The position numbers and the translations under genes were made by a program. Positions 21,712 to 61,723 of a stretch of 64,000 nt of DNA are shown here, in pieces. The DNA is from Octopus vulgaris (taxonomy: Eukaryota). The notes beneath the pieces are model-generated. The model was not told the origin of the DNA and searched no databases. It saw nothing but the letters and a program-made list of their open reading frames with translations. Location: the NCBI GenBank assembly GCA_951406725.2, contig OX597819.1, positions 65,534,001-65,598,000 on the forward strand, in the 5' to 3' direction. The first letter of the stretch is position 1; each line of letters opens with the position of its first letter.

Positions 21712-22060
21712 GTAAATGAGCAACAAGGATATCCAGAGGTACTGCAATGCGATCCTTTCATGTAACTCCATTTAATTGAACAATGCAATCATTGCTACAA
21801 TTTAAAATGTAGAGCAATCTTCAGCTGCACAAGACATAGAATTTAATCAAATTAGAACAGATGGACACAGTAGTATAATTATACCAAAAATCTCCAAAAA
21901 TTTAAGGAGATAGACAAAGAACATGTTTCTGCTTCAGCATAGAAGTTACCCTAGATATCCTTGTTGCTTATTTTGATTTCAATCACCTTATTTTGAAATT
22001 GCATGGATAATACCATACTAAATTTTGGTATCTCAATTTAAGTATCATATTCATCTGAAA
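21712..22060 (-). mobile_element. Short repeat with 15-bp inverted repeat and hammerhead remnants (PLE-tail-like)
   Basis: AGCAACAAGGATATC (21719-21733) / GATATCCTTGTTGCT (21954-21968); minus-strand CTGAAGA+hairpin and CTGAAGCA-GAAACATGTT; (TA)n on both sides. Confidence 0.45.
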
Positions 22061-22291
22061 CTATATATATATATATATATATATATATATATATATGGGC
22101 AAATATATCAAGGTCTCTCTTCCGGCGCTCAAATGGTTTTTTACCTCACCTCTCTATTATGTATCTTTTCCTTCATTTCAGTCAATAGATTGTGACCATG
22201 GGGGAGCACCGTCTTAAACGTCTGTTAAGGCATTCCGAGTCTCATTCATCAAGATGCCTGTGAGAATCCTAATACCTGTGTAGATGTTATA

Positions 22292-23021
22292 CAGTAATCC
22301 CTCGACATATCGCAGTTAACCTATCGGGGTTCACTTGTCGCGGTTCACTCATCGCGTTTCACTTATCGTAGTTCACTTATCGGGGTTCACCTATCGCGGT
22401 TTATTATTTAAGTTTACGTCAATTCCTCCGTGGTGTTGTTTTGCAGTTATAATAAAATAAATATATGCAAATTATAAAAATTAAAAAATATATACATAGG
22501 CACAGGAGTGACAGCGCTGTAAGAAGGTTGCTTCTCAACCAAAGGCTCCAGGTTCAGTCCCTCTGCGTGTAACCTTCAGCAGGTGTCTCCTACTATAGCC
22601 ACAGAAACAGGAAATAGCCCGTCGTATATGTATATATATATTTGCTTGTGTGTGTGTGTGTGTTTACAACCCATGCTGGTGTGTTTATGTCCCTGTAACT
22701 TAGCAGTTTGGCAAATATACCGATAGAATAAGTACAAGGCTTAGAAATGAATAAGTCCTGGGGTCGATTTCTTCGAATAACACCCTTTAAGGTGATGCTC
22801 CAGTATGACCGCAGTCAAATGACTGAACCAGGTAAAAGAGTAAAAGTGAACAGTACTACAGTTCTATATTTAAGACATGAGGAATAATATACATTATTTA
22901 CATTATTTACATTTGACGGATACTTGTCCTCATCTTGAACGGTACTGTTTCTACTTCGCGGATTTTCACCTATCGCGGTGGGGTTTGGAACGTAACACCC
23001 GCGATAGTCGAGGGATTACTG
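22292..23021. mobile_element. pogo/Tigger-like MITE with nested SINE A (22498-22848) and a fragment of the 26910 repeat (22885-22937)
   Basis: TIR CAGTAATCCCTCGAC / GTCGAGGGATTACTG, TA TSD on both sides, internal 15-bp TTCACYTATCGCGG subrepeats; second partial copy at ~52630-52790. Confidence 0.9.
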
Positions 23022-23047
23022 TAGTTTTAATAAATATTTGCAAAACT

Positions 23048-23810
23048 AGGCGTAGGTGTGTTTGTGTGTCAAAAAGCTTGCTTCTCCTTTCCTAATTATA
23101 TATTTCCGGCCGCAGTGTCCTTAAGCAAGTGTCTTCTGCGGTAATCACGAGCCTACGAAGGCTTTGTGACTGGATTTGGTAGACGCAAACTGGAAGAAGC
23201 CCGTCGTATTCATGCATAAATATATGTATATGTGTGTGTGTGTTTATTTGTGTGTGCGTGTGTGTGTGTGTGTGTGTACGCGTGTGTATGTCATTATCCT
23301 TTGTTTGCCCACCACCACCGTTTGGATTTAGCAGACGGAAACTTGAAGAAGCCTCTCTTATTCATTCATAAATATGTGTGTTTATGTGTGTTTGTACGTG
23401 TATGTGTGTGTACGCGTTTGCGTGTGTACACCCGTGTGTGTGTGTCATTGGGCCTGTATTTGTCCACCACCACCGTTTGGATTTGGTTGACGGAGACTGG
23501 TAGAAGCCCGTCATATTCATGCCGAAATATATGTGTGTGTTTGTGTGTGCAGATACTTGTGTGTGCATGTGTCTGTGTGTGCGGATGTGTATATTTGTGT
23601 GTATATGCGTGTGTGTTTTTGCTTGTGTTTGTTCACCACCACCGTTTGACGACAGATGTTGGTTCGTTTACGTGCCTGTATTCTAGCAGTTCGGCATGAG
23701 CGACCGATAGAATAAGTACCAGTTTTCAAACAAAGCTACTGGAGTCAACTCGTTCGACAAAAGAACTCCTTAAGGCGGTACCCCAGCATGGTCGCAACCT
23801 ATTGATTGAG
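23048..23810 (+). mobile_element. Diverged SINE family A with internally triplicated segment
   Basis: Three GGATTTGGTAGACGGAAACT..GAAGCCCGTC units before the tail. Confidence 0.75.
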
Positions 23811-24039
23811 GTGAGGTAGGAGAATCATTCGAGCGTCGGAAGAAAAAACTTGAGAAATTTGCTCTAATGTACTGAGTACAAATTTCGCAGAGGTCAACTC
23901 AGCCAGCCGTTCATTCCACCAGGATCAATGAAAGCGTGCCAGTCAAGTTCTAAGAGGATTACCCACTTCCATATACCTTGGTTATGAATTGATTACAACC
24001 GCAAGCAAAACAGCAGCAGGAACAATTATGTTCTTTAAA

Positions 24040-24845
24040 TATATCGACCTCAGCACTGAACTGGTACTTATTTCATCTTTCCCGAAAGAGTGGAAAGCAA
24101 TTTTGATCTCGGTGGAATTTGAACTCAGAAAGAAGAGACGGATGAAATACCCTTAAACATTTTGTCCGGCGTACTAACTCTTCTGCGAGTTGAATTTTGG
24201 TTGCAAATATTGGCGGAAGGTAAGCAATTTTAAACGATGAGTAAGTTTATGATATCGATCCCAGTGCTCAACTGGTACTTATTTTATCGATCTCGAAATG
24301 ATCGGAGGCAAGGTCGATTTCGGTAGAAATTGAACACAAAACGTAGAGACGGACGAAATACTGCTAAAAATTTTGTCCGACGTGCTAACGATTCTGCCAG
24401 CTTATTATTTTTTTCTACTCAAGGCACAAGGCCCGAAATTTTTTTGTGGGAAGGGACCAGTCGTTTAGATCGACTCCAGTACGCAACTGGTACTTAATTT
24501 AGCAACTCCGAAAGGATGAAAGGCAAAGTCGACCTCGGCGGAATTTGAACTCAGAACGTAGACACGATATACTGCTAAGCATTTTGCCCGGCGTGCTCAA
24601 GATTCAGCTAGCTTAATATTTATTTCTTTATTGCCCCTAAAGGGCTAAACATAGGGGGGACAAACAAGGACAGACAAAGGGTTTAAATCGATTACATCGA
24701 CCCCATTACATAACTGATACTTATTTAATCGACCCCGAAAGGATGAAAGACAAAGTGGACTTCGGCGGAATTTGAACTCAGAACGTAGACAGACGAACTA
24801 CTTCTAAGCATTTCGCCCGGCGTGCTCACCATTCAGCCAGCTTAA
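24040..24845 (-). mobile_element. Tandem cluster of four SINE family B copies
   Basis: Repeated AACTGGTACTT..GAAAGGCAAAGTCGACCTCGGCGGAATTTGAACTC. Confidence 0.85.
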
Positions 24846-59250: not shown

Positions 59251-59269
59251 TGTGGTCCTTGTCGATATT

Positions 59270-60085
59270 ATCAGACAAGACTCGAACTATGGCGACTTTC
59301 AAAAAAGTTTTCGTGCTATATGGGTCTTCATTGACGGTTTTCTCGCTGGAGAATTAAGAAGCTAAACGTTGGGTGTGATGTTATCATGCAAATTGTCGGC
59401 CATCCGTTCTTGTGTCATTTGAACTTGTTGAAAGACTTAAGACCATCCATTGCATACACTGTTGATCCAAGGCTTAACAAATTTATCCAGAAACTCAATA
59501 TACGCAGCAGTATTCATCCTAAGACCCTGTGGAGAAAAGTGATGAAGTATTGCATGTCCTGCATTGCTAACAACACCGAAAACCATGATGCTTGCAGGAA
59601 ATTTTGTGCGCATTACTCTTGGAACATCAGAAGTGTCTGCACATAGCCATCTGTCATTTCTTCTGTTAATTTTCTGGTCCTGGTCAAAGTTTCCCTCACA
59701 CGAAATTTATTTGCAATAGACCTCATTGATTTTCCAGGATTGTGTTCAATGTTTTGCTTGACTTCCTTAATAAATTCATCCCTCCTGAGAGAATCAGAGT
59801 GTTTGGAATGTTTCGTACGTTTTGATACAGGTAACATGCTTCCATCTGTTTTTCTATAACTCAGACAGAATCTTGCGGACAGAAGATCTTGCAACTTTCA
59901 GAAAAGGAGAAATTTCTAAACCATCGTTCTTAGCCTTCAAAGCCACAATCACAGCATGCTTTTACATTTCATTAGTAAGCAAATGATCGTCATTGTTATT
60001 TTCTGAAATAGAAGTTGAATAAAAGTTAGTCAAATAATATTAATGACTAAAAATACATGTGTCCTCAAATACTATCGGCATCCTG
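59270..60085 (-). pseudogene. Decayed maT/DD37D-like transposon
   Basis: EFIKEVKQNIEHNPGKSMRSIA, VKPWINSVCNG, TQERMADN..NSP; ends in CCTG-TA. Confidence 0.75.
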
Positions 60086-60327
60086 TATGTATGTATATAT
60101 ATATATATATATATATATATATATATATATATACACCATGTAATTTAGATTCAATTGAATTAGGCACTTAAATTGAGGCACTTTGCTAAGACGAGCTTAT
60201 TTGCGCACTCAGGTGAGTATCAAACCAAACTCTACAAAAACTTTTTCCACCCGATATTCGTGCAGAGTATGTAGATGGTATGATCCAACTTAGTGAATAA
60301 ATCCGCTCTTGTTTTTCAGACAAGCAG

Positions 60328-60410
60328 TCATCTGATGAGAAAGGTTTCTTTGTAATGATGTAATACTTTCATTGATCAATTAAAGAAGTTGCTCGAAACG
60401 GCCGTAGTGA
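60328..60410 (+). ncRNA. Type I hammerhead, long stem II, in pLTR-like fragment ~60135-60480
   Basis: tcat-CTGATGA-ga..tttcttt..aaagaag..tc-GAAA-cggccg-TA-gtga; stem I extends via acaag/cttgt. Confidence 0.85.
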
Positions 60411-60539
60411 ATTGACACTTGTTCATCTTTGTAACTCATTTACATATATATTTATAACAAGGTGGAGTTGTTGGGTACCGCACGAGTGGAATTATATACG
60501 AAAGAAGGTTTGAAAATGCAGTTTTAAAAAATGTTTATT

Positions 60540-60582
60540 TACTTTACCGGTTTCACTCTTTGGAAAAAGATTGTCAAAAGTA
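60540..60582 (-). ncRNA. Decayed minimal hammerhead
   Basis: tactt-TTGACAA-tcttt(ttcc)aaagagt-GAAA-ccgg-TA-aagta; two core substitutions. Confidence 0.55.
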
Positions 60583-61723
60583 ACATGTAAAAGTTTGGTT
60601 GTGTCACTTATTCGTTGTTACAAAATGCTACAATACACATATACAGTCCTTGGCAACAAGAACATGTTATGGACACAAAAAAGTTTAACAAGTTCCTTAT
60701 ATATATATATATATATATATATATATATATATATATATATATATATATACACGCGCGCGTGTACACACATATATATATATATATAATTTCTTTCTCTCAT
60801 CCTCATCCTCCTCTGTTGCTAAGATTCATTCTCTTTCAATATGTGTACGTAGCCGCGCCACTTTACTCATTACTTGCTATACGTGCACATACATCCTGCA
60901 ACACATTTATTAAGAAACTCTCTATATCTGTTTTACATCACTATATGATCTAAAGCTTCACTGGAGATACTAACCAAACCAACCAATCAATCATTGATTA
61001 TAAAACAGAGGCAACATATTTACATATCTTAGTAAGGATGTTGATAAAGAAAATTGAGGAAATAAATAACATCAAAAACAAATTTTACGTTAGCCAACGA
61101 TAATAATAATGAAAATACGGAAATAAACTATTAAAAAAATCAAAGTAATAGAATATTTACAGATAGGTTTTATTTGAAAGAATGATATAACAAAGAAGAT
61201 CGTGAATATTTGTGAGGAAGGTTTTGTGGGGTTTTTTAATCAAAATTGTTGACATACTTGAAAAATTATATGCTATTATATATTTTTAATGAATGTGTAT
61301 AAATTAATAATTTGCAACAGAAGCAGCCATTGTAACGAATATTAATTTGCACATCTAACCTAACTTGCATCCGTTGCTTATAACGCCGTAGACTTCGGTA
61401 AACGCCTCGCGAAATCATCTCACGTACACGGCAAATGCTGAAAAGCTAAATTATAAAGTATACCGGTTTCACAGATTTTTGATCTGCCATTCGTTGTTTG
61501 GCTGTCTGCTACCGATGATAAGCAGTTTACAATGAAATCACGTCATACGGCAGTGCCATACGCCGGTACCGAATACATTTCGTCAACCAATATAAGCTGT
61601 TCTTTTTAACATGCGACGTTTACTGCAGTTCTAGGCGTTCAACACAACACATACATCCCATGGTTATTCTAACCGAAGGAGGTCTCCCATTTGGGATTCT
61701 ATTTACATAAATAAATGTGCACA

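What the first reader, a model, noticed from the sequence alone, without database searches (positions are those of the whole stretch)
21712..61497. Roughly a dozen hammerhead motifs from many unrelated short repeat families in one window
Seen: canonical cores at 35124, 40710, 41311, 45989 and 60328; decayed or variant ones at 26960, 47383, 48730-48810, 49160-49198, 52329, 56343, 56921, 60540 and 61458, plus remnants near 21800-21940. Nearly all have short palindromic stem III (AACGTT, ACGTACGT, ACGGCCGT, ACCGGT). Known: this is the PLE/retrozyme hammerhead signature. Inference: hammerhead-bearing non-autonomous elements are a major, probably under-annotated repeat class in this genome, and intact ones could cleave a host pre-mRNA.
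Basis: partly seen in the sequence, partly recalled or inferred. Interest (0 to 1): 0.75.

Follow-up and report, generated by a model that had tools for sequence, protein, structure and literature searches.

The report
Hammerhead ribozymes on Penelope retrotransposon ends
The window holds 16 hammerhead motifs (predicted self-cutting RNAs) from 12 repeat families, three of them traced to Penelope-type jumping genes and the rest likely truncated ends or parasites of such genes; this pairing is known, nine of the copies are decayed, and the intact ones likely do not cut host RNA on their own.

Summary
A type I hammerhead descriptor gives 6 hits in the window against 0.1 in 200 shuffles, and 28 against 1.4 in an independent 600 kb genome sample (roughly 54,000-213,000 genome-wide), so this window is ordinary for its genome. 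Genome searches place 16 sites in 12 repeat families: 5 with canonical cores, 2 with family-fixed variant cores (U3-A8, U6), 9 decayed. One call (61458) is wrong, but its family has a hammerhead 50 bases away on the other strand. The site at 45989 ends a broken Hydra-type Penelope-like element (PLE); two more families trace to PLE coding sequence; most others show PLE insertion marks. Family B is a young non-coding 560-base tandem retrozyme-like repeat; family E has a tRNA-like head (about 38,000 candidates). 'Non-autonomous' is only partly right, and cleavage of host pre-mRNA is unsupported: no host gene was seen, and published solo motifs of this kind are inactive. PLE hammerheads and retrozymes are published, and this scan already noted similar retrozymes, a C4 core and the tRNA-headed repeat elsewhere in this genome. 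New member of a known kind.

The parts
21714..22061 (-). Family K element with inverted arm; decayed hammerhead at 21743-21829 (-). Family majority canonical, U.U at base of stem II, palindromic stem III
   Evidence: (2,440 candidates); Hydra-type coding remnant upstream in L232
22853..22937 (-). 3' tail fragment of family E, no hammerhead
26367..27059 (+). Family E: tRNA-like head (26367-26441), (AAT)n interrupted by another insertion (about 26543-26750), body with minimal hammerhead 26958-27003; this copy has GAGA for GAAA (predicted dead)
   Evidence: 38,445 candidates
35005..35194 (+). Family A two-armed element ending in (TA)n; hammerhead 35124-35161 with canonical core (family has canonical and C4 subfamilies)
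   Evidence: (1,585 candidates)
40260..41650 (+). Family B: young non-coding 560-base tandem repeat (retrozyme-like) with short inverted arm, in (TA)n; two identical canonical-core hammerheads at 40710-40761 and 41311-41362 (GUU site, U.U at base of stem II, 10-nt palindromic stem III)
   Evidence: (2,511 candidates, 98-100% identity)
42820..46195 (+). Family C: 5'-truncated, broken Hydra-type Penelope-like element: RT pieces 42823-43920, inverted EN piece 44261-44374 (-), GIY-YIG EN 45136-45570, 3' repeat with extended hammerhead 45989-46073
47233..47501 (-). Family G (old, 70-76% identity), decayed hammerhead 47382-47422
   Evidence: (30 candidates)
48728..48937 (.). Second family A element, head-to-head; two dead hammerheads at 48728-48765 (-) and 48781-48818 (+)
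48969..49253 (-). Family J, dead hammerhead 49156-49200 (GAAA box lost); family majority has core boxes, weak stem II
   Evidence: (684 candidates)
52230..52412 (-). Family D copy, decayed minimal hammerhead 52329-52364
56255..56430 (-). Family D copy, minimal hammerhead 56343-56378 with the family-fixed U6 core; 3' end of an RT-EN-coding PLE
   Evidence: (1,393 candidates)
56890..57065 (+). Family L, decayed minimal hammerhead 56927-56966; family majority has core boxes, weak stem I
   Evidence: (234 candidates)
60324..60445 (+). Family H, extended hammerhead 60328-60410 with canonical core (stem II only 2 bp before a mismatch)
   Evidence: (580 candidates)
60438..60690 (-). Family F, hammerhead 60539-60583 with family-fixed U3-A8 core and an off-register stem II junction
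61454..61623 (+).
   Evidence: (14 candidates)

Best explanation
The 16 sites are type I hammerhead motifs near the 3' ends of 12 repeat families, three of which trace to Penelope-like element (PLE) coding sequence and the rest of which are likely 5'-truncated PLE ends or non-coding derivatives copied by PLE enzymes. Mechanism, with status: (1) PLE protein nicks TA-rich DNA and reverse-transcribes from one of two fixed points downstream of the ribozyme (published in vitro for one PLE; here inferred from fixed 3' ends, a tail present on one arm only, (TA)n flanks and inverted 5'-truncated arms, which are shown). (2) Because copying starts just 3' of the hammerhead, every insertion, however short, carries one, which explains the density (inferred). 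(3) The template was likely uncleaved or circularised RNA, since copies keep sequence on both sides of the cleavage site (inferred). (4) After insertion copies decay (shown for 9 of 16). (5) Solo copies with a 1-2 bp stem III would need a partner motif or the PLE protein to cleave (published for other PLE motifs); only the tandem pair of family B is placed to form the dimer, so it is the one candidate for real activity and for a circular RNA (untested).
For: Enrichment 6 vs 0.1 (window) and 28 vs 1.37 (600 kb). C lies 400 bases behind a GIY-YIG ORF; 14 of 20 C loci have the EN upstream; window protein has DKT, CxCx5C and CxxC/CxH motifs that define Hydra PLEs (vs PMC8557442 section 11). D reaches RT-EN coding sequence in L093 with nested 5' truncations in the other loci; K reaches a Hydra-type remnant in L232. 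Genome holds PLE ORFs of 806 aa (Hydra-type) and 781 aa (Neptune-type) with hammerheads in their 3' regions, including U3-A8 cores. A: all 30 aligned loci are two-armed with short and long 3' ends into (TA)n, apart from a few long ends without TA; B: in 10 loci inspected, arrays end at two fixed points followed by (TA)n wherever an end lay inside the locus, and at least 5 have inverted arms; F: 22 of 22 other copies matched end in TA runs. Stems differ in sequence between families while core boxes are kept.
Against: No coding partner found for A, B, E, F, G, H, I, J (0 of 30, 0 own of 20, 0 of 20, 0 of 30, 0 of 15, 0 of 15, 0 of 14, 0 of 15 loci; only Hydra- and Neptune-type queries); L not tested. 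C and E do not end in (TA)n. Loci are top hits to my queries, so architecture counts are biased towards the window copy. Family majorities of I, J and L have a weak stem. No activity or expression was measured.
Confidence: 0.88

Rival explanations
1. Most families are independent non-autonomous retrozyme- or SINE-like parasites that make their own (often circular) RNAs, rather than truncated ends of coding PLEs.
For: B is a non-coding 560-base tandem unit at 98-100% identity across chromosomes. A starts about 10 bases before stem I in the two-armed copies. E has a linked tRNA-like head (16 of 20 heads followed by a body in selected loci, 4 of 5 in the random sample) and no long ORF in 150 scored copies (max 236 aa) or after 27 tail ends.
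Against: C, D and K trace to coding sequence; D looked non-coding in 24 of 25 loci, which shows how easily truncation mimics non-autonomy. An earlier unchecked scan note calls an E-like repeat the end of a coding PLE.
Confidence: 0.35
2. Intact copies were kept or matter because they cleave a host pre-mRNA transcribed across this window.
For: Five canonical-core motifs lie on the + strand, and the B pair could dimerise in one transcript (stem III self-duplex -11.6 kcal/mol).
Against: No host exon recognised in 174 kb; all 16 sites split 9/7 by strand; density fits the genome sample (P of 6 or more hits in 64 kb = 0.16); solo minimal motifs did not cleave in PMC4209133, the anole PLE motif needed protein (PMC11167929), 1 of 9 frog dimers cleaved (10.64898/2026.07.22.740005).
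Confidence: 0.05
3. The motifs are chance matches in a repeat-rich, low-complexity genome.
For: With one core mismatch allowed the scan is near chance; 61458 was a false call.
Against: 0 of 200 shuffles exceed 1 hit vs 6 observed; 0 of 196 exceed 6 vs 28; family majorities are better hammerheads than the decayed window copies.
Confidence: 0.01

Closest known systems
Minimal and variant type I hammerheads of metazoan PLE terminal repeats (Cervera and de la Pena 2014, PMC4209133; parts 1-2 of 4 of the text read)
   Same: Type I topology, 1-2 bp palindromic stem III, many sequence families per genome, mostly solo copies from truncated PLEs, pairs on opposite strands 100-700 bases apart, U3-A8 covariant core.
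   Different: Several families here have very long stem II insertions (C, H, K, about 55 nt); family-fixed U6 (D) and C4 (part of A) cores are not in the passages read.
Hydra clade PLEs (Craig et al. 2021, PMC8557442; section 11 and passages read)
   Same: C-terminal GIY-YIG, DKT, CxCx5C linker, CxxC and CxH around the conserved E and N, canonical hammerhead; inverted 5'-truncated arm and one-sided tail described for PLEs.
   Different: Window copy is truncated and broken; C itself does not end in (TA)n; 17,330 first-look candidates suggest far more copies than the small set of families reported there.
Animal non-LTR retrozymes (Cervera and de la Pena 2020, PMC7229834, passages; Li, Clavereau and Pollet 2026, 10.64898/2026.07.22.740005, parts 1-3 of 5)
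   Same: Family B: non-coding, low GC (33%), tandem units each with a type I hammerhead; U.U at base of stem II as in axolotl HHR_Amex2; PLE origin proposed.
   Different: Unit of 560 bases is longer than the 150-450 typical in the 2020 paper (within the 51-972 range of the 2026 preprint); circular RNA not shown; PLE-type insertion marks are visible on the arrays.
Poseidon PLE of the green anole (Frangieh et al. 2024, PMC11167929; main text read)
   Same: Two reverse-transcription start points giving a tail; ATG close to the hammerhead with an open frame through the tail, as in family E (55 codons).
   Different: No continuing ORF found for E; E carries a tRNA-like head and (AAT)n.
Schistosome hammerhead SINEs (SM-alpha, Sj-alpha; seen only as a figure legend and references in review PMC6765202)
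   Same: Promoter followed by a hammerhead in a short high-copy repeat, like family E.
   Different: E has a minimal motif and PLE-type inverted arms and tail.

Membership tests
Type I hammerhead ribozyme | CUGANGA and GAAA boxes, A15.1-U16.1 pair, NUH site | tested here: met
   5 of 16 window sites canonical; 9 of 12 family majorities canonical. D (U6), F (U3-A8) and part of A (C4) are variants; 9 window copies fail.
Type I hammerhead ribozyme | Three stems with stem I open | tested here: met
   Descriptor scan; weak stem II in B, F, I, J and weak stem I in L.
Type I hammerhead ribozyme | Self-cleavage at the predicted site | not testable with these tools
   Only assembled contigs were offered, which cannot show RNA ends.
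Penelope-like element, Hydra clade (family C) | RT with DKT motif plus C-terminal GIY-YIG EN in one ORF | tested here: met
   Pieces in window match the 806-aa ORF of L206 at 48-76%; GIY-YIG E 0.0004, just under the Pfam cut-off.
Penelope-like element, Hydra clade (family C) | CxCx5C linker, CxxC and CxH motifs, no CCHH | tested here: met
   Read from the translation against PMC8557442 section 11.
Penelope-like element, Hydra clade (family C) | N-terminal RWK motif; placement in the Hydra clade by RT tree | not tested
   5' end missing in the window; no tree built.
Penelope-like element, Hydra clade (family C) | Insertion into (TA)n | tested here: not met
   1 of 20 C 3' ends followed by a TA run; the paper says 'almost all' families.
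PLE-mobilised sequence (families A, B, D, F, H, K, L, E) | Fixed 3' ends with one-sided tail, inverted 5'-truncated arm, TA- or AT-rich target | tested here: met
   Clear for A and B, single TA end for D and F, two ends for H, K, L, E by alignment; the automatic count is unreliable for B and K.
PLE-mobilised sequence (families A, B, D, F, H, K, L, E) | Identified autonomous partner | tested here: inconclusive
   Found for D and K; not for A, B, E, F, H; L not tested.
Non-LTR retrozyme (family B) | Non-coding tandem units, each with a type I hammerhead | tested here: met
   560-base units, up to 6 or more per array, hammerhead identical in 20 of 20 loci (about 10 arrays); no PLE protein match.
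Non-LTR retrozyme (family B) | Expressed as self-cleaved linear and circular RNA | not testable with these tools
   Contigs from runs only guessed to be RNA; the head-to-tail joint also exists in genomic tandems.
tRNA-derived SINE (family E) | tRNA-like head with A and B boxes fixed to the body | tested here: met
   Linkage counts; boxes read by eye (consensus recalled); ARAGORN finds no intact tRNA in 12 loci.
tRNA-derived SINE (family E) | Pol III transcription and absence of a coding master | tested here: inconclusive
   No long ORF in 150 of 38,445 candidates; transcription untested.

The most novel reading that the evidence does not exclude
This genome carries on the order of 100,000 intact hammerheads in at least 16 families, among them a roughly 38,000-copy tRNA-headed SINE that is copied by Penelope enzymes rather than LINEs, and high-copy families whose catalytic core is fixed in non-canonical states (U6 with a freely varying position 7, C4) and still functional, possibly with help from the element's protein.
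Probability: 0.25. Interest if true: 0.6.

Novelty: new member of a known kind. Interest (0 to 1): 0.3.

Why it matters
The class is published, so the main claim would not surprise a specialist. The value is as a resource: a cephalopod genome in which PLE hammerheads are among the densest I could compare with (published counts in the passages read: about 2,000 in a fluke, 9,000 in a frog, up to 120,000 in the much larger axolotl genome), with young non-coding arrays that show PLE insertion marks and with natural core variants in thousands of copies. These give ready substrates for the open question of what the PLE ribozyme is for, and whether retrozymes are copied from circles.

Tried and rejected
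Rfam scan of the window: the 150 best of 397 matches shown were simple-repeat artefacts, almost all miRNA models; no hammerhead family among them, the other 247 were not shown. Relaxed one-mismatch scan: near chance, dropped as evidence. 61458 as a hammerhead: rejected. 17042, 36403, 53121 and other lone CUGANGA boxes: no complete fold; not followed up. Neptune-type ORF upstream of family F in L368: rejected as a separate insertion, since a TA array lies between and no other F locus shares it. RNA evidence: no RNA holder listed on record; contigs of four runs guessed to be RNA cover family B and show the unit-to-unit joint, which is no evidence of expression or circles; the question of transcripts over the rest of the window stays open. 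Host gene search by unmasked ORFs in the window and 110 kb of flanks: nothing recognisable by eye, part of the output was cut, short exons would be missed. Coding master for family E: none in 150 scored copies or 27 tail ends. Automatic TA-end counts were confounded for B (internal units) and K (motif ends too early). Pfam does not recognise the Hydra-type RT. Lunse et al. 2017 on PLE hammerhead variants was not held and may already list the U6 and C4 cores. Literature searches for octopus hammerheads (5 papers, 4 listed), SINE + Penelope + hammerhead + tRNA-derived (2), A6U (39, 15 listed, one listed paper with the term, not read) and Pol III + PLE (36, 15 listed) showed no description of these families in the listings; supplements were not read.
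Full report
Setting. The window is G000:C6:65534001-65598000 of a 2.8-Gb, 227-contig genome, 36% GC and rich in microsatellites. Its SINE-like repeats look octopus-like to me (recalled, not tested); earlier scan notes also call it a cephalopod.

Noticed in passing
L360-L363 and one search list (e.g. G000:C16:33683164-33685506): A young Neptune-type PLE family with many uninterrupted 781-aa RT-EN frames; several copies carry a U3-A8 hammerhead with a short (3-4 bp) stem I in the 3' region.
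   Followed up: partly
L270:2307-4513 (G000:C1:20002300-20004600): Two-armed array of 359-base units with canonical hammerheads (5 plus, 2 minus); related copies in L211 have a U3-A8 core. Probably the 360-base retrozyme of earlier scan notes.
   Followed up: no
window 26543-26750; L397, L163, L402: Other elements ending in (AAT)n sit directly upstream of family E bodies; the one in the window recurs in L397. Either they target the AAT tract or they form chimeras with E.
   Followed up: no
window 31870-32750 (-) and 59335-60000 (-): Decayed mariner/Tc1-type transposase remnants (Pfam Transposase_1, E 2e-9, for 32210-32515; the second judged by eye).
   Followed up: partly
window 53360-54120: Large inverted repeat structure (arms at about 53360-53700 and 53780-54120) without a hammerhead; looks like a non-autonomous DNA transposon or two-armed insertion.
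   Followed up: no
window 9270-9490 and many other sites: Head-to-head and dispersed tRNA-like SINE copies with (TA)n/(TG)n centres; they produce spurious Rfam miRNA hits.
   Followed up: no
window 44261-44374 (-): An inverted duplicate of the endonuclease C-terminus lies inside the family C element, between RT and linker.
   Followed up: partly
G000:C30:19.9-21.1 Mb: At least 13 near-identical family C copies cluster within 1.2 Mb, suggesting segmental amplification rather than transposition.
   Followed up: no
L347 (G000:C30:5221180-5221329): GIY-YIG hit that reads like a host SLX1-type nuclease exon (name recalled), not a PLE.
   Followed up: no
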